Source: a virus
Lineage: Duplodnaviria > Heunggongvirae > Uroviricota > Caudoviricetes
Strand: one strand, 5' to 3'
Virus record (IMG/VR): IMGVR_UViG_2565956725_000003
Span: 1 to 41,483 of that record
Length of the DNA stretch: 41,483 nt
The notes beneath the pieces were generated by a model, which had not been told where the DNA came from, searched no databases, and saw only the letters and a list, made by a program, of their open reading frames with translations. Below are positions 2,697 to 25,686 of this stretch, piece after piece (positions within the stretch are counted from its first letter, which is position 1; the number at the start of each line of letters is the position of its first letter). Both the position numbers and the translations under genes were made by a program.

Positions 2697-3096
2697 CGTC
2701 TTTTCTCCCCGGAATTAAATCGCGTGGATTGTCTGAACGGTGGTAGAGCCATATACCAATACGCACAGCGACAATTGCTGACACGAATGCGCCAGCAGAG
2801 AAAACAATCCCTTTTTCAAAAGAGTCCTGCGTGATGGTAGGGATCAGGCTGGCTATGCCGATAAGAATTGATGCTGCTGGTTTGTAGAAAAGAAGTCCAC
2901 AGAGAAAGCTAAGCATCGATAAGAGTACGCGACGATGAATTGGGTACTCTACCGCAGAGGTAACAAAAATTACCGCACCAGCAAGAGCACCGAGCGCCAC
3001 CTCTGGCGGAACGCCTACGATAACTGCAGCAAGAGAGCTCACACTAAGCCATTGATTTAAAGAATCAGTAGTTAGATGGGCTGACATAATGAACAC
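2683..3096 (-). CDS. small multi-pass membrane protein (second holin/antiholin or other)
   Basis: 137 aa with three to four hydrophobic helices, between tailspike and holin; start ambiguous (GTG at 3096 or ATG at 3087), weak RBS. Confidence 0.4.
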   Translation of the reverse strand: MFIMSAHLTTDSLNQWLSVSSLAAVIVGVPPEVALGALAGAVIFVTSAVEYPIHRRVLLSMLSFLCGLLFYKPAASILIGIASLIPTITQDSFEKGIVFSAGAFVSAIVAVRIGIWLYHRSDNPRDLIPGRKDDGNA

Positions 3097-3316
3097 CGTT
3101 TATTACGCATAACAATCTCCTTACTATTGAAGATTCACACATAATAAACCATTTAAGGATAATAGTTACCTCAAAACGCTGTATTTCTACCTTCTACGGC
3201 AATGAAAATTTCGTTCAGAAAATGGTCTAGTGTACCTCTCAGTCACAATTAAAGAAGAAAGAAGCCGAACTTACTTCGTAATAAGCAAGCCGGCTACTAA
3301 GATTAATCCTCAATAT

Positions 3317-6073
3317 TTAGCTACTTTCAAGCATTGCAAGACGTGATTCTATTTTTTCGATTCTTCTACGCAAATAAGCTGACTCAAGCCATAAACACTG
3401 GTCAGTACGGATACCCCACCTATTTCCAGCCTTGCAAACCAGAGTTCGCTCTTCTGTTTCGTATTCTTCTTCCATCTCAATTTCGACGCCATCCACAACT
3501 TTAGTGATCATCCTTACCGCCATCACTGGCGCGTATTTATCATCCCATTCATCGTAACAGAGAAGGCCAAATCTGGTTCCATCAATCCCATGCGCGAGGA
3601 AAGTGTCTCTCACTTGTTGTGCTATAACACCAAAATGCCAGCGGGCACCATCTCCCTTTTCCCTGACGGCATCAAGCCAGCGAAAAGCTACAATCCTGAT
3701 ATCTCCCCATGCATCCAGAATTGCATCACCTTCATAACCACGAGACATATACAAGCTGAGCTCACTTGTACTAATCGGTTCACTTTTTTCTCTACCATCT
3801 GATGTGTTTATCGAACCGTTCGCAGAATAAACCTGTGCCCATCTAAATGATGGTGCACCAAGAGATTTGCTGTTATCAATAATTGGTGAAAAATTACCTT
3901 TAATGGCAATATTTCCAGAGTCGCCGAATATATTAATAACTGCAGAGTCATCACCATGGTTTTTTACGCTTAAGTTTCTTGATGAAATATTTATATCTTT
4001 GTTATATCCACTAACATTAATCCATCTTTTACCATCAATGTGATACCCGTAAATATTTCCGTCTGATTGTTCGTCAGGTGACTCTCTAAGAACAATAGCA
4101 TCTGCTCCAGACGACCATTGTATTTTTGTATCTGTAGGCCTCCAGTTCTTTATAATGAACGAACCATCAGTAAACTCCGTTTTTATTTGTCTATTGTCTA
4201 CAAATGCGTCTCTTGGTTTAAACTCACTTGTGTTAACGCTGCTCTGAAGATCAGAAGCAAAAAATCTAAGATTTCCTGTATAACCCTGAGTCTCGGTCTG
4301 GTTATACGCAATCATAATTCCATTTTCAAACTCAGATGATGTTATTTTAACATCACGGCAATCACCAAAAATGCAATTTCCTTTATCAAATGTTGTTTGA
4401 GCTTTGAATTTATCAAACCTTAAATTACGAACAGGGAAACCATCAACCTCTAATGCAAAGGATGCAGGAAGGCCAAAGTATTCTGATGGCTTACCTGATG
4501 TATGATCAAGAGTAGTGGCTACTGTATTCTCAAAAACAGTCCCGCTAAAATTATTACCAATTGACGGAAACCTGATTACACTTATTGTACCTTGTATTTC
4601 AGGAGAAATACCAGATAGTGTGATGTTAGCTCCATCAAATGATGCATCTGAATACGTATATACTGATTCACTGCCAGCAATTTTAAACTGTTTAACTGAA
4701 GTTATTCTCATCGACTTTTTATGTTTAAATGTCACTGAGCTTTCAGTATTACTTACAAGATCAATCTGAGGGCTATTCCTTATCGCGATCCCTGACTGGA
4801 CATAAACGTTATTAAAGTGCGTTTTTTCAGGATTTCCCTTCATTGAAAGGCTCCCGTCATTTTCTGTCAGTAGTAGTCCTTTTACCCTCCAATAGCCGAC
4901 AATCTGTACGTTATCAATAACTGAATCACAGCTATCGTATACATGCAACCCTATATCCCAGTCATCACCCAATGAATAAGAATCAGGGTTATTGTATCCT
5001 TCAATACCATTTTTACTTACCATTATTCTCAGGTTGCGTAACTGTGATGCCCTGTTGATACTAACAGCTACGCTCATGGCTTTTGGTGTAGCAGGAGTAA
5101 CACCTACAGAATCTTCATTTGTAAACTCAGTGAACTTACAAGATATCCCTTCAACAATTTTAACTGGTCTTTCATTAGAGATGTTAAAAAAATATTTGTT
5201 TTTTTCTCCATCACCAGTAAATACAAGATGGGTTCCTTTACTCCAACTTTTTAATAATCTTTCAGGCGCTGGTCTATATGTATCCCAATAATCAATGCCA
5301 TCACCAATTAAAGACACTCCAGGAGGCACATCTATGTTCTTAGAAATCATCCATTTACCTGCAGGTATTCTAACGACACTTGCACCAGAATTTATCGCAT
5401 TAATTAACCATTCAGACGCATCAACTTCAAAATTTAATGCAGCATATCTTTGCTCAAACGGAACAAAATCAAGAGCGTTAACGTTATCCCGCATCTTATC
5501 CTGGAACGTTCGGTATACTGCTCCAGAACCATACTGAATAAACCAACCAAAACCACCAACAACTCCGGCGATTGCAGCATCAACATAATTGCGCATTGAT
5601 CGATTATTTACAGCATCCTGCTCAAGTGATGGATCTGCAAGGTTAGAAATTTTGTTTTGCTTTGCATCGTAATATTTTGCAAGCAAAGATGGTTTCATCA
5701 ATGCACGTCTGAACCATCCAAAACATTGCTGGATCAGCATCGTCAGATAGTCAAAGGCATCTTCATGCACCTCGGGGAAAAATTTTCCCTGATTACGAAG
5801 ATCAGTCTCCTGCACCACATCAAGCACACGATCTATCGTAATTCGCCATCCAGCAGCAAGCGGCGACGGAAGAACAACAGAACCGCCACTATAAGTGCCC
5901 GCCCCTGTTACCGTATAACCGGTATCCAGAACCAATTCTGTTACGTTCCCGTTCAGGTCAGACACCTGAACAACCAGGTCGGATTTTTTGAAAATACGGA
6001 AGGTATACGGAAATGATGTCGTAGCTCCGTTACCTGTGTATTCGTTGTGGTCAACTTCGGTTGAGACCGTCAT
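3317..6073 (-). CDS. tailspike/tail fibre with C-terminal intramolecular chaperone (peptidase S74-like)
   Basis: 918 aa; N-terminus resembles the T7 gp17-type adaptor domain; AT-rich central part; C-terminal roughly 150 aa resembles self-cleaving chaperone domains of endosialidase-type fibres; RBS GGAG. Confidence 0.8.
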   Translation of the reverse strand: MTVSTEVDHNEYTGNGATTSFPYTFRIFKKSDLVVQVSDLNGNVTELVLDTGYTVTGAGTYSGGSVVLPSPLAAGWRITIDRVLDVVQETDLRNQGKFFPEVHEDAFDYLTMLIQQCFGWFRRALMKPSLLAKYYDAKQNKISNLADPSLEQDAVNNRSMRNYVDAAIAGVVGGFGWFIQYGSGAVYRTFQDKMRDNVNALDFVPFEQRYAALNFEVDASEWLINAINSGASVVRIPAGKWMISKNIDVPPGVSLIGDGIDYWDTYRPAPERLLKSWSKGTHLVFTGDGEKNKYFFNISNERPVKIVEGISCKFTEFTNEDSVGVTPATPKAMSVAVSINRASQLRNLRIMVSKNGIEGYNNPDSYSLGDDWDIGLHVYDSCDSVIDNVQIVGYWRVKGLLLTENDGSLSMKGNPEKTHFNNVYVQSGIAIRNSPQIDLVSNTESSVTFKHKKSMRITSVKQFKIAGSESVYTYSDASFDGANITLSGISPEIQGTISVIRFPSIGNNFSGTVFENTVATTLDHTSGKPSEYFGLPASFALEVDGFPVRNLRFDKFKAQTTFDKGNCIFGDCRDVKITSSEFENGIMIAYNQTETQGYTGNLRFFASDLQSSVNTSEFKPRDAFVDNRQIKTEFTDGSFIIKNWRPTDTKIQWSSGADAIVLRESPDEQSDGNIYGYHIDGKRWINVSGYNKDINISSRNLSVKNHGDDSAVINIFGDSGNIAIKGNFSPIIDNSKSLGAPSFRWAQVYSANGSINTSDGREKSEPISTSELSLYMSRGYEGDAILDAWGDIRIVAFRWLDAVREKGDGARWHFGVIAQQVRDTFLAHGIDGTRFGLLCYDEWDDKYAPVMAVRMITKVVDGVEIEMEEEYETEERTLVCKAGNRWGIRTDQCLWLESAYLRRRIEKIESRLAMLESS

Positions 6074-6268: not shown

Positions 6269-6526
6269 ATGCAGCAGTATCACTATCCACTGGAAGACGG
6301 ATTTACCGAAAGGATTCACACGCCGGGAGGCGTCAGGTCACTGGTGGAGGGATCGCACTTGATGAAATTACTCCGGGATCTCGATAAGGATGGATTTAAT
6401 GTCGATGGCCCACTTGCCGAACTGACTGCACTGATTAACTACGTCACCAGCTCACAGATGTCTATGCAGGATCTGCAAACACATCTCGACTATTGTGCCG
6501 AACAATTACGAAAGCAAACCAGATAA
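6269..6526 (+). CDS. small SOS-controlled protein, paralogue of the Bro protein C-terminal domain (candidate antirepressor)
   Basis: 85 aa, RBS GGAG; aligns with the last ~65 aa of the 6840..7532 product (shared IH-P-GV, LM-LL, DG-V-G, AELT, QTH-Y). Confidence 0.7.
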   Translation: MQQYHYPLEDGFTERIHTPGGVRSLVEGSHLMKLLRDLDKDGFNVDGPLAELTALINYVTSSQMSMQDLQTHLDYCAEQLRKQTR

Positions 6527-6573: not shown

Positions 6574-6665
6574 TTTACATCGCACTCCTCTTGTGCCATA
6601 GTAATCGGGCACTGGCAAAATCCAGTGCCGGGATTGGTCTCCCGGATTACTACAGAGGCACATAT

Positions 6666-6686
6666 GCCGCATAAGCGGTTTTTTTA
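6666..6686 (+). terminator. weak terminator-like hairpin plus T-tract
   Basis: CCGC-ATAA-GCGG followed by TTTTTTT; short stem. Confidence 0.3.
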
Positions 6687-6839
6687 TGTGTAAAGCGCAC
6701 CTATTCTATGGTGGGCTGTGTGGGGGCACCGAAAGGTGCGCCGGGTTCCTTTGTAGCCGGTAAGACCAACTCTGCACAGTTCACCACCATCTGATTGGTC
6801 TCAGCGGTGGTGATTAACCTAACTACAAAGGTGATCGCC

Positions 6840-7532
6840 ATGAATACCAAACCTTCCATCTTTTCCTTTGAGTCATCCTGCCAGATCCGTATGTTCATGA
6901 TTGACGGAGAACCTTGGTTTGTCACCAAAGATGTGTGCAATGCTTTGAATATTGATGTTACACAAGCGAGAAAACTTGATAAAAAAGGCTGGAACAAAAA
7001 GGGGCTGTATTCAATACAGACCCCTGGTGGAATACAAGAACTATCCATCGTTTCAGAATCAGGTCTCTACATCCTTATTCTGCGTTGCAAAGAGGCAATG
7101 ACAGAGGGAACGAGAGCATTCAGATTTCTTGAATGGGTTACAGGTGAGGTTCTTCCTCAGATCCGCCGCACCGGAAGTTACATTAAAAACTCGCTCCCGC
7201 AGGAAGAACGCATAAAGATGGTTGCCGACCAGGTAGCCAACGCCACGGCGTCAGCAGTAATGCAGGCGATGAAGATAGAGAACAAAACCTACAGTGCCCC
7301 GCTGAAGCCCGGCTACCGCAGCCTGATTCACTCGCCGTCTGGTGTTCTCGGCCTGACGGAGAACTCACTGCTGATGAATCTGCTGAACCAGTTACAGGAA
7401 GACGGGCACGACGTATCGGGCGCGGCGGCGGAACTGACCACCATGTTCTGCTACATCGTCGGTGTGAGTAAATGCCTGCGTGATATCCAGACCCACGCGG
7501 AATACATCAACGACAAGGCAGGGGTCTTCTGA
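6840..7532 (+). CDS. Bro-N domain protein (antirepressor-like)
   Basis: N-terminal Bro-N signature (FSFESSCQIRMFMIDGEPWFVTKDVCNALNI ... GLYILILRC ... FLEWVTGEVLPQIRRTGSY); start at ATG 6840 with RBS AAAGGTGA. Confidence 0.85.
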   Translation: MNTKPSIFSFESSCQIRMFMIDGEPWFVTKDVCNALNIDVTQARKLDKKGWNKKGLYSIQTPGGIQELSIVSESGLYILILRCKEAMTEGTRAFRFLEWVTGEVLPQIRRTGSYIKNSLPQEERIKMVADQVANATASAVMQAMKIENKTYSAPLKPGYRSLIHSPSGVLGLTENSLLMNLLNQLQEDGHDVSGAAAELTTMFCYIVGVSKCLRDIQTHAEYINDKAGVF

Positions 7533-7541
7533 CAGAACGGC

Positions 7542-7568
7542 GGCACAGGGATGTGCCTTTAAATAATT
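7542..7568 (+). terminator. terminator-like hairpin after the Bro gene
   Basis: GGCACA-GGGA-TGTGCC followed by TTTAAATAATT. Confidence 0.4.
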
Positions 7569-7597
7569 CTGTACAGATTGCAGGTGAATAGCGTACT

Positions 7598-7614
7598 ATT
7601 ACCCCAAAGGTAAG
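7598..7614. promoter_or_regulatory. operator-like palindrome (copy 3)
   Basis: ATTACCCCAAAGGTAAG upstream of the two-gene cassette; further GTAAC-N13-GTTACC half-sites at 7626-7650. Confidence 0.55.
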
Positions 7615-7730
7615 AAAGTTGATTTGTAACATTTTAGTTTGTAGTTACCGTGATGGTTTTGCTGCAGAAAGTTAACTAGTCAAAATCACACCGTATGTAA
7701 GTCACGTCTGTTCCCGTATGGGAGGATGAT

Positions 7731-7949
7731 ATGTTTAAATTTGATATGCAACTCAACCAAAACTATGCCTCTTTTTACCATCCAGAAACTGGTAAAGCTG
7801 TTTTCGTTGACTCTTTCGATAATGAAGAATTTGATATCAGAATTGGGACCCTACGCCAAAGTAAGCATGTTGCTACTGTACGTGCATCCAATGATGATGA
7901 ATTAAATCAAAAAATAAGTGAGGCGACCTCCCGTTATCTATGTCTATAA
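7731..7949 (+). CDS. hypothetical protein, first gene of an AT-rich two-gene cassette
   Basis: 72 aa; strong RBS GGGAGGA; no recognisable domain. Confidence 0.6.
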   Translation: MFKFDMQLNQNYASFYHPETGKAVFVDSFDNEEFDIRIGTLRQSKHVATVRASNDDELNQKISEATSRYLCL

Positions 7950-8317
7950 CAGAACAACAACTCATTGATCTTGAGGATGAGATTAACGAGATCTTGCAAG
8001 AAGATGCGGCAAGAATTCACTTTTCATTTCACGCAGCATATGAACGCCTGAACGACGAGAGGAACAAACCGCCAATTACTCTTGCTGAGCTTGAAGATGT
8101 GTTTAAATCGTTTATATCTGCACATCTGCAGACTGTTTTGGATTTTGCTGAAGGTACAACTTTCACCATAAAGTGCAACAAAAGCGCCCTTCATTTTCCT
8201 TGCGCCATTGTACACGAAAGAGAGTTTGGGAAAACGTGGGTTATCCAAAACGTCATTACAGCCATGAGGAAAGTGGGATTCAAGTCTAAAGATTCTATTA
8301 TCCTCGAAGTTAATTAA
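7940..8317 (+). CDS. hypothetical acidic protein, second gene of the cassette
   Basis: 125 aa; start overlaps the upstream stop by 10 nt; followed by a terminator; no recognisable domain. Confidence 0.6.
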   Translation: MSITEQQLIDLEDEINEILQEDAARIHFSFHAAYERLNDERNKPPITLAELEDVFKSFISAHLQTVLDFAEGTTFTIKCNKSALHFPCAIVHEREFGKTWVIQNVITAMRKVGFKSKDSIILEVN

Positions 8318-8339
8318 GCCCGCACTGAGGGCTTTTTTA
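8317..8339 (+). terminator. rho-independent terminator
   Basis: AGCCC-GCACTGA-GGGCT followed by TTTTTT directly after the 125-aa gene stop. Confidence 0.7.
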
Positions 8340-8410
8340 TGGACGAAACAAAAGTCAGTGCTACACTCATTGACGCCACATTGAGGTGGCTTATAGATGG
8401 AAATTTCACA

Positions 8411-8572
8411 ATGAAAAAAGCATTTGCTGCACTGTTCGTTTTGTTGTCTCTGGTAGCTTCAACTCAGGCCTTTGCCGGTCGTTGTCAGCACGACAGCGAC
8501 ACTGCTGCTGACGGCTCCCGCTGCGGTGGGCGTTCTGCGGATTCCCGCCCGGGTGGCGGTGGCATTCGTTAA
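8411..8572 (+). CDS. small secreted Gly-rich two-cysteine peptide
   Basis: 53 aa from internal ATG: signal peptide MKKAFAALFVLLSLVASTQAFA then a 31-aa mature peptide with two Cys. ATG at 8339 rejected (abuts terminator, no RBS). Confidence 0.45.
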   Translation: MKKAFAALFVLLSLVASTQAFAGRCQHDSDTAADGSRCGGRSADSRPGGGGIR

Positions 8573-8594
8573 AAACAAGGCCGCGAAAGCGGCC
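8571..8594 (-). terminator. terminator for the minus-strand late operon, possibly bidirectional
   Basis: GGCCGC-GAAA-GCGGCC hairpin; on the minus strand it is followed by TTGTTTTT. Confidence 0.6.
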
Positions 8595-8603
8595 TGTGAC
8601 ATG

Positions 8604-8984
8604 TCACGCAACGCAATTATTACCGCGCCATGTAACATTTTTAATAATCTTATCAGCACCAAACTCAACGTAAACAGAGCAACTGAAATGGAGTGTATAA
8701 CCGCCATCAGTTGTTGCGTATGTGTTTGAATATATAGTATTACCAATTAGATTAGACGTAGTATTATACGTTGTGGTTTGTGGTACGTTATAACTACCAG
8801 AGCTTGAGTAAACATACACTCTGTTTCCATCTGGAGATGTAAGCTCTCCCTGAGGATACCCCCACTGCTGAACCATTGCGTCTATACTCTGCCCGCGCCA
8901 CGTAAGCATATTTCTTTCAAACTGTGCAGCTGACTGGCATCCAACGAGAAGCATAAATCCAAAAATCAAAAATACTTTTCTCAT
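8604..8984 (-). CDS. prophage lipoprotein (moron, possible superinfection exclusion)
   Basis: 126 aa from ATG 8984 with RBS AGGGG; signal peptide MRKVFLIFGFMLLVGC (lipobox LVGC); Thr/Asn/Tyr-rich mature part. Confidence 0.6.
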   Translation of the reverse strand: MRKVFLIFGFMLLVGCQSAAQFERNMLTWRGQSIDAMVQQWGYPQGELTSPDGNRVYVYSSSGSYNVPQTTTYNTTSNLIGNTIYSNTYATTDGGYTLHFSCSVYVEFGADKIIKNVTWRGNNCVA

Positions 8985-9069
8985 AATTACCCCTATCATG
9001 GAAAAACAGCACCAATCCACAAATTAACTAGTTATTTTATTATTCTTCCGAACAATACAATTCCGAATA

Positions 9070-25609: not shown

Positions 25610-25686
25610 GTGGCATTAGCTCAGTTGGACAGAGCAACCGCCTTCTAAGCGGTTGGTCGCAGGTTCGAATCCTGCATGCCACGCCA
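25610..25686 (+). tRNA. tRNA-Arg (anticodon UCU), phage-encoded argU-like
   Basis: Hand-folded cloverleaf with 7-bp acceptor stem, D and T arms, anticodon loop CTTCTAA, discriminator G and encoded CCA; core resembles argU. Confidence 0.9.

What the first reader, a model, noticed from the sequence alone, without database searches (positions are those of the whole stretch)
7731..8317. Unrecognised AT-rich two-gene cassette in the accessory island
Two overlapping ORFs (72 aa and 125 aa) with a strong RBS, their own operator-like palindrome upstream, a clean terminator downstream, and visibly lower GC than the flanking DNA. I recognise no domain in either. Compact, self-contained cassettes at this prophage position often carry lysogen-expressed functions such as toxin-antitoxin, superinfection exclusion or anti-defence.
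Basis: inference. Interest (0 to 1): 0.65.

Follow-up and report, generated by a model that had tools for sequence, protein, structure and literature searches.

The report
Conserved two-gene prophage cargo module
Two small overlapping genes of unknown function sit as swappable cargo next to a prophage's antirepressor gene; the larger one belongs to a very large, unnamed family of phage protein domains that may be an RNA-cutting enzyme, and the smaller one is probably its dedicated partner or inhibitor.

Summary
The two ORFs are real genes. ORF1 is 7731-7949 (72 aa) and ORF2 is 7940-8317 (125 aa). They overlap by 10 nt, follow a strong Shine-Dalgarno sequence, evolve under strong purifying selection (dN/dS 0.03-0.10), and stay adjacent in the same order in all 20 other loci examined. 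They fill a variable cargo slot (about 7614-8315, GC 0.39 against 0.485) at the 3' end of an IsrK/C4-RNA-controlled antirepressor locus in an epsilon15-like prophage. Related prophages carry other cargo in the same slot. The upstream palindrome and the downstream terminator belong to the conserved backbone, not to the cassette.

Pfam, NCBIfam, PADLOC and PDB sequence searches find nothing for either protein. PHROGs places each in a family of unknown function. ORF2 is a stand-alone member of a large unannotated phage domain superfamily: 611 representatives at 50% identity, mostly from marine T4-like phages. There the domain is often fused to nucleotidyltransferases and P-loop kinases. Its invariant residues are H31, R36, R41, E50, T107, R110 and F114. 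Its N-terminal half resembles the T4 RegB endoribonuclease (hhalign P 4e-4, probability about 36%), which is suggestive but not proof.

ORF1 folds confidently (pLDDT 90.6) into a beta-meander plus helix with no informative structural match.

My best guess is a toxin-antitoxin-like effector/inhibitor module, at confidence about 0.4. Function and expression remain untested.

The parts
6609..6685 (+). IsrK-type sRNA with its own leaky terminator. It marks the start of the antirepressor (immI-type) operon that the cargo slot ends.
   Evidence: Rfam RF01394, 74.7 bits against a gathering score of 50. Terminator-like hairpin at 6666-6679. The same element occurs in Klebsiella, Salmonella and other E. 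coli loci.
6704..6791 (+). C4-type antisense RNA element, the translational control region ahead of ant.
   Evidence: Rfam RF01695, 78.6 bits against a gathering score of 45. Conserved in related loci.
6846..7532 (+). Bro-N antirepressor gene (ant). The mechanical ORF starts at TTG 6795; the PGAP start corresponds to 6846.
   Evidence: Pfam Bro-N, E 2e-13. PHROG anti-repressor Ant, E 5e-52. PGAP annotates it as 'BRO-N domain-containing protein'.
7542..7557 (+). Hairpin GGCACA-GGGA-TGTGCC just after the ant stop codon, part of the backbone. It is a weak terminator or RNA-end element.
   Evidence: Read directly from the sequence. Compensatory changes in Klebsiella (GGCGC...GCGCC). The Salmonella version scores as terminator-like.
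7568..7577 (.). Perfect 10-bp palindrome TCTGTACAGA inside the conserved backbone block 7560-7613.
   Evidence: Read directly from the sequence. The block is shared at 96-100% identity with 36 E. coli genomes that lack the cassette and is aligned.
7614..7730 (+). Cargo-specific 5' leader. It includes the SD GGGAGG at 7720-7725 and a small hairpin TCCC-GTAT-GGGA (7712-7723) that overlaps the SD.
   Evidence: The left cargo junction was mapped by alignment with prophages carrying other cargo. The hairpin is kept with compensatory changes in Klebsiella. The leader as a whole shows no significant fold, z = -0.54.
7731..7949 (+). ORF1, 72 aa, acidic (pI 5.2), a four-stranded beta-meander plus a C-terminal helix. 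Invariant motif VDSFDN-x-x-F. Putative partner or inhibitor of ORF2.
   Evidence: AF2 pLDDT 90.6. dN/dS 0.07-0.10. An ORF1 homologue lies immediately upstream of ORF2-type genes in all 20 other loci. PHROG 14630, unknown function.
7940..8317 (+). ORF2, 125 aa, a stand-alone member of a large unannotated phage domain superfamily. Invariant residues H31, R36, R41, E50, T107, R110, F114. Putative effector, possibly a RegB-like RNase.
   Evidence: PHROG 14518 plus the C-terminus of PHROG 23027. hhalign against the RegB family: probability 36-37%, P about 4e-4. dN/dS 0.03-0.04.
8316..8340 (+). Intrinsic terminator that closes the slot. It is a backbone element whose stem begins at the ORF2 stop codon.
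   Evidence: It is conserved downstream of all cargo variants and in Klebsiella.
8411..8572 (+). Backbone gene for a 53-aa signal-peptide-like small protein that bounds the slot on the right.
   Evidence: PHROG 14503 'membrane associated protein', moron category, E 2e-40. PGAP names it 'transmembrane anchored protein' in a relative. Conserved in the alignment.
8604..9020 (-). Conserved lipoprotein-like 138-aa gene of the accessory region. It is retained together with the pair in the Pantoea allii prophage remnant.
   Evidence: PHROG 3716, unknown function. The homologue in L007 at 8594-8974 has the lipobox-like N-terminus ...LTGCQ.

Best explanation
ORF1-ORF2 is a mobile two-gene cargo module. 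It sits in a variable slot at the distal end of the IsrK/C4-controlled antirepressor locus of an epsilon15-like prophage.

Shown: both are real genes. Their reading frames overlap by 10 nt, an arrangement that would allow translational coupling (inferred, not tested). They are strictly co-inherited, and they replace other cargo at the same site.

Inferred: ORF2 is the effector. It is a stand-alone copy of a widespread phage domain with an invariant polar constellation (H31, R36, N38-D39, R41-N42, E50, T107, R110-K111). That domain is most probably a metal-independent endoribonuclease or RNA-binding domain distantly related to T4 RegB, which has the RelE/YoeB (BECR) fold. ORF1 is a small acidic globular protein that occurs only with stand-alone ORF2. 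It would bind ORF2 and hold it inactive. The pair would then behave like a type II toxin-antitoxin or abortive-infection module that benefits the lysogen or stabilises the element. Release or excess of ORF2 would cut RNA and arrest translation.
For: 1. Pair conservation. ORF1 lies immediately upstream of ORF2, overlapping or within a few nt, in all 20 other loci read. These span E. coli, Klebsiella, Salmonella, Enterobacter, Pantoea, Chromobacterium and metagenomes, down to 35-45% identity.
2. Strong purifying selection on both genes.
3. Cargo behaviour. The slot is variable. The pair is retained intact in a decayed prophage and in a small integrase islet beside HicAB.
4. The ORF2 superfamily has invariant H, R, R, E, T and R residues across 102-131 diverse sequences, as expected for an active site.
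5. Profile-profile match to the RegB family over 48-56 columns. It aligns ORF2 H31/R36/R41/I46 with RegB H48/R52/R56/I58, and H48 is a catalytic His (PMC3014915). The score of 28.1 exceeds all 120 shuffled controls, whose maximum was 25.0.
6. The predicted helices followed by four strands are compatible with RegB's three helices plus a four-stranded sheet (PMC3014915).
7. Fusion partners in marine phages are P-loop kinases of the Zeta/AAA_33 type, nucleotidyltransferases, a tRNA-ligase CPDase, a PAP2 phosphatase, HNH and GNAT domains. By inference this set suits RNA-end chemistry.
8. ORF1 is a confident small acidic fold. Its weak best structural neighbours include toxin immunity proteins and phage-encoded enzyme inhibitors.
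Confidence: 0.4

Rival explanations
1. The module serves the phage's offensive, lytic-phase programme. ORF1-ORF2 would be co-expressed with the antirepressor at infection or induction. ORF2 would act like T4 RegB or another early host-takeover or anti-defence effector, for example by remodelling host or resident-prophage RNA. ORF1 would tune, chaperone or time its activity.
For: The pair lies directly downstream of an antirepressor gene in three unrelated settings: Bro-N Ant in epsilon15-like prophages, pRha/ANT behind Arc repressors in a Chromobacterium siphovirus, and an Ant-C-terminal-like 178-aa gene in the Pantoea islet. The operon is IsrK/C4-controlled. In Gifsy-1 that arrangement is transcribed but not translated in lysogens (PMC4825925). 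No consensus promoter lies between ant and ORF1 in the window. Homologous domains are common in strictly lytic T4-like phages near early or replication genes (phiM12 gp159, Melnitz gp31), without an ORF1 partner.
Against: A hairpin that scores as terminator-like in Salmonella separates ant from the slot, and a promoter-like TTGCAG-17-TAATAT follows it in relatives. Other cargo in the slot (small membrane proteins, DUF4760) looks like lysogen-type exclusion genes. Keeping the pair in a decayed prophage remnant and in an integrase islet with no functional phage argues for a benefit to the host or element that does not depend on lytic growth.
Confidence: 0.25
2. ORF2's domain is not a nuclease. 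It would be a ligand- or nucleic-acid-binding (or adaptor/oligomerisation) module that recruits partner activities. Marine phages fuse the partner enzymes to it. In enterobacterial prophages ORF1 would be the non-covalent partner, and the pair would carry out some other lysogenic-conversion or exclusion function without being a toxin-antitoxin pair.
For: Among the 149 best homologues the domain occurs N-terminal (48), C-terminal (42), internal (16) or alone (43), joined to many unrelated enzymes. This is typical of a promiscuous accessory domain. ORF2 is acidic here. ORF1 is as conserved as ORF2 rather than faster-evolving. There is no match to any toxin family.
Against: Invariant H, R, N-D, R-N, E, T and R-K residues across very divergent sequences are more typical of catalysis or specific ligand chemistry than of a passive adaptor. 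ORF1 has no enzymatic signature and is only 72 aa.
Confidence: 0.2
3. The ORFs are chance or decaying reading frames in AT-rich filler DNA.
For: Both are small, lack any curated domain, and lie in low-GC sequence.
Against: dN/dS is 0.03-0.10 while synonymous sites are near saturation. Full-length homologues occur in several genera and in a betaproteobacterium. ORF1 has a confident AF2 fold. ORF2 has 611 remote homologues.
Confidence: 0.01

Closest known systems
T4 RegB endoribonuclease (PDB 2HX6; RelE/YoeB-like BECR fold)
   Same: Both are phage-encoded small proteins. The ORF2 motif [ST]-x-H-[FL]-x-x-[DE]-R...R...I followed by a helix aligns with RegB H48-D51-R52-R56-I58. The predicted helices followed by four strands are compatible with RegB's three helices plus a four-stranded sheet (PMC3014915). 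Homologues sit among early or replication genes of T4-like phages.
   Different: There is no HMMER-level similarity. hhalign probability is only about 36%, and the C-terminal sheet is not aligned. RegB His68 aligns with a Lys in ORF2, and His68 is not invariant within the RegB family either. RegB is basic and has no known protein inhibitor. ORF2 here is acidic and always comes with ORF1.
Type II toxin-antitoxin modules of the RelE/ParE superfamily (for example relBE, yefM-yoeB, DUF4258 modules)
   Same: Bicistronic, with the small upstream gene overlapping a toxin-sized downstream gene of about 100-125 aa. Mobile, found in prophages and islets, and located next to HicAB in one genome.
   Different: There is no match to any of the 13 Pfam BECR toxin families listed in PMC11980606. 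ORF1 lacks an RHH, HTH, AbrB or Phd-type DNA-binding domain and is predicted fully globular. The pair is nearly absent from plasmids.
Gifsy-1 IsrK-orf45-AnrP locus and the P1/P7 immI (c4-icd-ant) antirepressor operons
   Same: The genes upstream of the cassette have this architecture: IsrK RNA, C4-type RNA, then an antirepressor gene (PMC4825925).
   Different: Those described operons end with isrJ or with ant and carry no ORF1-ORF2-like genes. Rfam finds no isrJ here. The cassette is an insertion at the operon's 3' end.
Prophage moron and defence hotspots (for example the P2/P4 cargo hotspots and the P22 sieA-immI region)
   Same: Conserved flanks with interchangeable, low-GC cargo between an immunity-region gene and virion genes, closed by a shared terminator. 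The comparison with the P2/P4 and P22 loci themselves rests on my own knowledge.
   Different: None of the three cargo types seen in this slot matches a known defence system in PADLOC. The defence function is assumed, not shown.

Membership tests
Type II toxin-antitoxin (RelE/ParE-BECR superfamily) | Two small adjacent, co-oriented genes, usually overlapping, inherited together | tested here: met
   The genes overlap by 10 nt. The pair is conserved in all 20 other loci read.
Type II toxin-antitoxin (RelE/ParE-BECR superfamily) | Toxin matches a known BECR toxin family (Pfam RelE, ParE, YoeB, HigB, DUF4258 and others) | tested here: not met
   hmmscan found no Pfam hit at E<=1 for ORF2. None of 32 diverse superfamily members hit a RelE/ParE-type BECR toxin family among the 25 best-represented families listed at E<=5; the only toxin-named family was a single chance-level Ntox50 hit (E 0.083).
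Type II toxin-antitoxin (RelE/ParE-BECR superfamily) | Toxin adopts the BECR fold | tested here: inconclusive
Type II toxin-antitoxin (RelE/ParE-BECR superfamily) | Antitoxin with a DNA-binding domain plus a toxin-binding region | tested here: not met
Type II toxin-antitoxin (RelE/ParE-BECR superfamily) | Toxin arrests growth and the cognate antitoxin neutralises it by direct binding | not testable with these tools
   This requires expression and pull-down experiments.
T4 RegB endoribonuclease family | Detectable sequence homology to RegB | tested here: inconclusive
   HMMER searches of the PDB with ORF2 profiles do not find 2HX6. Profile-profile comparison gives probability 37% and P 3.6e-4, above 120 shuffled controls.
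T4 RegB endoribonuclease family | Catalytic His48 and His68 (PMC3014915) | tested here: inconclusive
   Invariant ORF2 H31 aligns with H48. The H68 position is Lys or variable in ORF2 and is not invariant within RegB homologues either.
T4 RegB endoribonuclease family | Cleaves RNA to give 5'-OH and 2',3'-cyclic phosphate ends, stimulated by ribosomal protein S1 | not testable with these tools
   This requires a biochemical assay.
Known anti-phage defence systems (PADLOC-DB v2) | A protein matches a defence-system HMM | tested here: not met
   No family matches ORF1, ORF2 or their neighbours at E<=1. None matches the alternative cargo either.
IsrK/C4-controlled antirepressor (immI-type) locus, the surrounding context | IsrK sRNA and C4 antisense RNA elements followed by an antirepressor gene | tested here: met
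   Rfam finds isrK at 74.7 bits (gathering 50) and C4 at 78.6 bits (gathering 45). Bro-N Ant is confirmed. The same layout occurs in Klebsiella, Salmonella and other E. coli loci.
Polymorphic toxin / immunity pair | Toxin domain at the extreme C-terminus of a delivery protein, with the immunity gene immediately downstream | tested here: not met
   The domain is N-terminal, internal, C-terminal or alone. The small partner gene is upstream, and only of the stand-alone forms.

The most novel reading that the evidence does not exclude
ORF2 would define a very large, so far unnamed superfamily of phage RegB/RelE-like endoribonuclease domains. The superfamily has at least 1093 clusters at 90% identity and 611 at 50%, mostly in marine T4-like phages, where the domain is fused to kinases, nucleotidyltransferases and a CPDase as RNA cleavage-and-end-processing machines. 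Temperate enterobacterial phages would have domesticated a stand-alone copy together with a new, non-DNA-binding protein inhibitor (ORF1). That would give a new toxin-antitoxin or abortive-infection family carried in an antirepressor-linked cargo slot.
Probability: 0.25. Interest if true: 0.7.

Novelty: new variant of a known kind. Interest (0 to 1): 0.5.

Why it matters
If the reading is right, it gives a function to a family of more than a thousand 'hypothetical' phage protein clusters, abundant in ocean viromes and present in thousands of Klebsiella pneumoniae assemblies. It would extend RegB-type RNA cleavage well beyond T-even phages. It would add a toxin/inhibitor pair whose inhibitor is unlike known antitoxins. 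It would also flag the IsrK/C4-antirepressor 3' slot of epsilon15-like prophages as a place to look for new exclusion or defence genes. If the reading is wrong, the finding is still a well-delimited, conserved two-gene cargo of unknown function, which is common in prophages.

Tried and rejected
- Curated libraries. Pfam, NCBIfam and PADLOC scans of ORF1, ORF2 and their neighbours found nothing. PHROGs returned only unknown-function families.
- PDB sequence searches with three profiles gave only chance hits.
- DUF4258 idea. I recalled the H-x3-R-x3-R motif from memory. No Pfam hit supports it, so I dropped it as a membership claim.
- RegB as a single sequence against the ORF2 profile gave 2% probability. 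Only the profile-profile comparison gave a suggestive signal.
- LexA box. CTGT-N8-CAGG at 7569-7584 does not fit CTGT-N8-ACAG, so I rejected it (read).
- Leader RNA structure is not significant, z = -0.54. Rfam at E<=1 found nothing real in 7450-8450.
- ORF1-like domain fused to ORF2-like proteins. The only case was P0098, a 132-aa product joining an ORF1 C-terminal piece to an ORF2 segment. I read it as a gene-call or frameshift artefact (inference, not checked), so it is not Rosetta-stone evidence.
- Plasmid addiction. Only two plasmid hits were found, so this gets no support.
- Literature. Searches for DUF5824 and DUF4760 gave nothing useful.
Full report
**1. What is in the sequence**

ORF1 (7731-7949, 72 aa) and ORF2 (7940-8317, 125 aa) are on the + strand. 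The ORF2 ATG lies 10 nt inside ORF1 (ATGTCTATAA). GGGAGG at 7720-7725 sits 5 nt before the ORF1 ATG. A hairpin AAGCCCG/CGGGCTT followed by a T-run (8316-8334) starts at the ORF2 stop codon. The 702-bp cargo (7614-8315) has GC 0.389 against 0.485 for the window. Only 3.9% of 700-bp windows are as low.

PGAP annotates the same two CDSs as hypothetical proteins in identical or 99%-identical DNA of E. coli Es_ST80_L1 and ETEC H10407.

Both genes are under strong purifying selection against Salmonella, Enterobacter and Pantoea orthologues. dN/dS is 0.07-0.10 for ORF1 and 0.03-0.04 for ORF2, while synonymous sites are near saturation. They are real genes.

**2. Surroundings**

The window is an epsilon15-like prophage. 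It carries a T7-gp14-family core protein, large internal virion proteins, a tailspike and a holin/endolysin cluster, and it lies next to yfgH/yfgI.

The cassette lies between the internal-virion-protein genes (- strand) and the tailspike gene (- strand), in a short + strand accessory block. Rfam shows that this block begins with an IsrK sRNA (6609-6685, 74.7 bits) and a C4-type antisense RNA (6704-6791, 78.6 bits). A Bro-N antirepressor gene follows (6846-7532). The same RNA-RNA-ant layout precedes the slot in Klebsiella, Salmonella and other E. coli loci.

This is the architecture studied in Gifsy-1 as isrK-orf45-anrP. There the operon is transcribed by read-through of the IsrK terminator, but the antirepressor is not translated unless IsrK acts in trans (PMC4825925).

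**3. The cassette is cargo in a variable slot, and its 'own' signals are backbone**

Only 4 of 5426 complete E. coli genomes, plus phage record Phi05_1387 B, carry the cassette. Another 36 genomes share just the first 47-54 nt of my query (7560-7613).

In two of those genomes the same backbone is present: ant, then the conserved block with the hairpin 7542-7557 and the palindrome TCTGTACAGA 7568-7577. After that block they carry different cargo. One has a 62-aa plus a 110-aa membrane protein. The other has a DUF4760 protein. The same terminator and the same 53-aa gene then follow.

So the left junction is near 7613 and the right junction is at the terminator stem. A perfect 10-bp palindrome in 200 bp is not unexpected by chance either, at about 0.2 expected (my estimate).

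The consensus scan finds no promoter between ant and ORF1. Salmonella and Enterobacter relatives have TTGCAG-17-TAATAT overlapped by the palindrome GTAATATTAC, and the E. coli window has a 7-nt deletion in that spacer. The hairpin after ant scores as terminator-like in Salmonella.

Whether the cargo is transcribed on its own or by read-through from the ant operon is therefore open.

**4. The pair is a unit**

ORF2 homologues at 57-98% identity occur in Enterobacter, Pantoea, Salmonella and especially Klebsiella, where one cluster is seen on at least 1000 contigs. ORF1 homologues have the same host range, plus Chromobacterium.

In all 20 other loci read, ORF1 lies immediately upstream of ORF2:
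- ETEC H10407 and epsilon15-like prophages of Klebsiella, Salmonella and Enterobacter, always after Bro-N ant;
- a Chromobacterium violaceum siphovirus prophage, with the order Arc-Arc-...-pRha/ANT-ORF1-ORF2; ORF2 was not called by the source but is intact at L009 5215-5592;
- a small integrase islet in Pantoea coffeiphila, next to HicA/HicB and behind a 178-aa gene whose tail resembles the Ant C-terminus;
- a decayed prophage remnant in Pantoea allii that keeps only the pair, the lipoprotein gene and a fragment of a virion gene;
- metagenomic contigs with ORF2 homologues of only 36-44% identity, each preceded by a 69-71 aa ORF1 homologue.

The pair is nearly absent from plasmids.

**5. ORF1**

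The family has an invariant VDSFDN-x-x-F motif, and the window protein has pI 5.2. AF2 gives a confident model (pLDDT 90.6, pTM 0.78) with four antiparallel strands and a C-terminal helix.

This fits a small binding or inhibitor protein but assigns no family. ORF1 has no recognisable DNA-binding domain.

**6. ORF2**

Curated libraries are silent. PHROGs gives phrog_14518 (unknown function) and a weak match to the C-terminus of phrog_23027.

A profile search of 1.84 billion representatives found 611 proteins at E<=1e-3. A word-indexed profile search found 1093 clusters. Almost all come from marine metagenomes, and they carry no Pfam domain and no informative name.

Among the best 149 hits, the roughly 115-aa domain is stand-alone in 43, N-terminal in 48, C-terminal in 42 and internal in 16.

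Cultured carriers are large lytic myoviruses. They include Sinorhizobium phiM12 (gp159, 602 aa, domain at the C-terminus), phiM7, phiM19 and phiN3, Methylophilales phage Melnitz, Paraglaciecola GD virus 1 and Flavobacterium phage immuto. In phiM12 and Melnitz the gene lies a few genes upstream of the DNA primase gene.

Fusion partners in 102 multidomain homologues are:

| Partner domain | Members |
|---|---|
| CTP_transf_like | 19 |
| DUF5824 | 15 |
| Zeta_toxin / AAA_33 P-loop kinases | 7 |
| DUF5661 | 2 |
| DUF3008 | 2 |
| PAP2, HNH, GNAT, tRNA-ligase CPDase | 1 each |

Superfamily-wide invariant residues, in window ORF2 numbering, are H31, R36, R41, E50, T107, R110 and F114. N38, D39, N42, I46, P87, M109 and K111 are nearly invariant. 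That pattern suggests an active or ligand-binding site.

The enterobacterial stand-alone forms are acidic (pI 5.2), whereas the marine domains have a median pI of about 9. No ORF1-like sequence accompanies the fused forms.

**7. The RegB lead**

The motif [ST]-x-H-F-x-D-R...R...I, with a helix before it and a helix after it, reminded me of T4 RegB. That is a recollection, so I tested it.

- T4 RegB as a single sequence against the ORF2 profile gave 2% probability.
- I built an 11-member RegB family alignment from tblastn hits at 39-78% identity. hhalign then gave probability 37% and P 3.6e-4 over 56 columns, ORF2 6-67 against RegB 20-78. The alignment pairs H31/R36/R41/I46 with RegB H48/R52/R56/I58.
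- With a 131-sequence ORF2 alignment the score was 28.1. Sixty column shuffles reached a maximum of 23.1, sixty block shuffles reached 25.0, and the reversed alignment gave 11.9.

RegB is a cyclizing RNase with catalytic H48 and H68. It has a RelE/YoeB-like fold of three helices and a four-stranded sheet (PMC3014915). The low-confidence AF2 model of ORF2 predicts helices 5-37 and 48-66 followed by four strands. This is compatible if the first long helix is really helix, short strand and helix, as the alternating I-x-F-[ST] pattern suggests.

The fusion partners (kinases, nucleotidyltransferases, CPDase, phosphatase) would suit enzymes that process the 5'-OH and 2',3'-cyclic-phosphate ends such RNases make. 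That link is inference.

**8. Mechanism and rivals**

*Best explanation (0.4).* This is an effector/inhibitor pair that behaves like a type II toxin-antitoxin or abortive-infection module. ORF2 would be an RNA-targeting effector. ORF1 would be its globular inhibitor, made first, with the overlapping frames allowing translational coupling (inferred). The pair would be carried as lysogen-benefiting or self-stabilising cargo.

- Shown: the genes are real, the pair is strictly linked, and it behaves as cargo.
- Inferred: binding, inhibition, RNase activity and the defence role.

*Rival 1 (0.25).* A lytic-phase function, co-expressed with Ant at infection or induction, as RegB is in T4. The repeated linkage to antirepressor genes, the IsrK/C4 control and the abundance of homologues in lytic phages favour this. 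The retention of the pair in a dead prophage and in an integrase islet argues against it.

*Rival 2 (0.2).* The domain is a binding or adaptor module rather than a nuclease, and the pair does something else.

*Rival 3 (0.01).* Chance ORFs are excluded.

**9. Comparison with known systems and novelty**

The surrounding locus is a member of the IsrK/C4-antirepressor type, and its features were tested and met.

The cassette fails the tested sequence criteria for the RelE/ParE Pfam families and for PADLOC systems. It also lacks an antitoxin-type DNA-binding domain, so I do not file it as a member of any known TA family. It may still work like one.

I class it as a new variant of a known kind, namely small two-gene prophage cargo of TA-like design. 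The wider point of interest is that its larger gene opens onto a very large unannotated phage domain superfamily.

Overall interest is 0.5. A specialist would not be surprised by an unknown prophage moron. The size of the superfamily, its fusions and the possible RegB link make it worth a bench test.

Noticed in passing
window 6609-6791: IsrK sRNA and C4 antisense RNA elements lie directly upstream of the Bro-N antirepressor gene. The prophage's ant locus is therefore of the Gifsy-1 IsrK-AnrP / P1 c4 type. The same pair of RNAs occurs in the Klebsiella, Salmonella and other E. coli relatives.
   Followed up: partly
window 6269-6526 (+) and 7340-7532: An 85-aa ORF (PHROG 450/15539) resembles the C-terminal about 80 residues of the Ant protein itself. 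The Ant C-terminal domain is thus present twice in the locus, once as a stand-alone small gene. An 86-98 aa gene occupies the same position in Klebsiella, Salmonella and Enterobacter loci. A similar tail ends the 178-aa gene upstream of the pair in Pantoea coffeiphila (L025 5985-6521).
   Followed up: partly
L011 4081-4603 and L012 4184-4723 (same slot in other E. coli prophages): The slot holds alternative cargo in other prophages. One has a 62-aa plus a 110-aa predicted membrane protein. The other has a DUF4760 protein with an N-terminal hydrophobic segment. None matches PADLOC.
   Followed up: partly
window 8411-8572 (+) and 8604-9020 (-): Two conserved backbone accessory genes lie beside the slot. 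One encodes a 53-aa signal-peptide-like Gly/Cys-rich peptide (PHROG 14503, 'membrane associated protein'). The other encodes a 138-aa lipoprotein-like protein (PHROG 3716). The lipoprotein is kept together with ORF1-ORF2 in the decayed Pantoea allii prophage (L007 8594-8974).
   Followed up: partly
window 25610-25683 (+): Rfam calls a tRNA gene (73.3 bits) inside the prophage. I did not determine its anticodon or role.
   Followed up: no
L002 3203-5818 (ETEC H10407): In ETEC H10407 the tailspike gene of the same prophage is interrupted by an IS66-family element (ISCro1), leaving a pseudogene fragment. That prophage is probably defective, yet it keeps the cassette at 99% identity.
   Followed up: no
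L016 1825-5714 and L017 4808-8702 (marine T4-like phage contigs): ORF2-like genes lie next to proteins of 1018-1063 aa that combine CTP_transf_like, DUF5824 and Zeta_toxin/AAA_33 kinase domains. In other homologues the same domains are fused to the ORF2-like domain. This is a recurring uncharacterised enzyme set in marine myoviruses.
   Followed up: partly
protein P0123 (5704 aa), residues about 2700-3680: A giant metagenomic protein has about ten tandem weak matches (individual E 0.005-3.3) to positions 33-116 of the ORF2 profile. This may be a repeat derived from the domain's C-terminal part, or it may be spurious.
   Followed up: no
window 7712-7725: A small hairpin TCCC-GTAT-GGGA overlaps the ORF1 Shine-Dalgarno sequence. 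Klebsiella keeps it with compensatory changes (TCCCG-CA-CGGGA). It may reduce translation initiation. The leader as a whole is not significantly structured (z = -0.54).
   Followed up: partly
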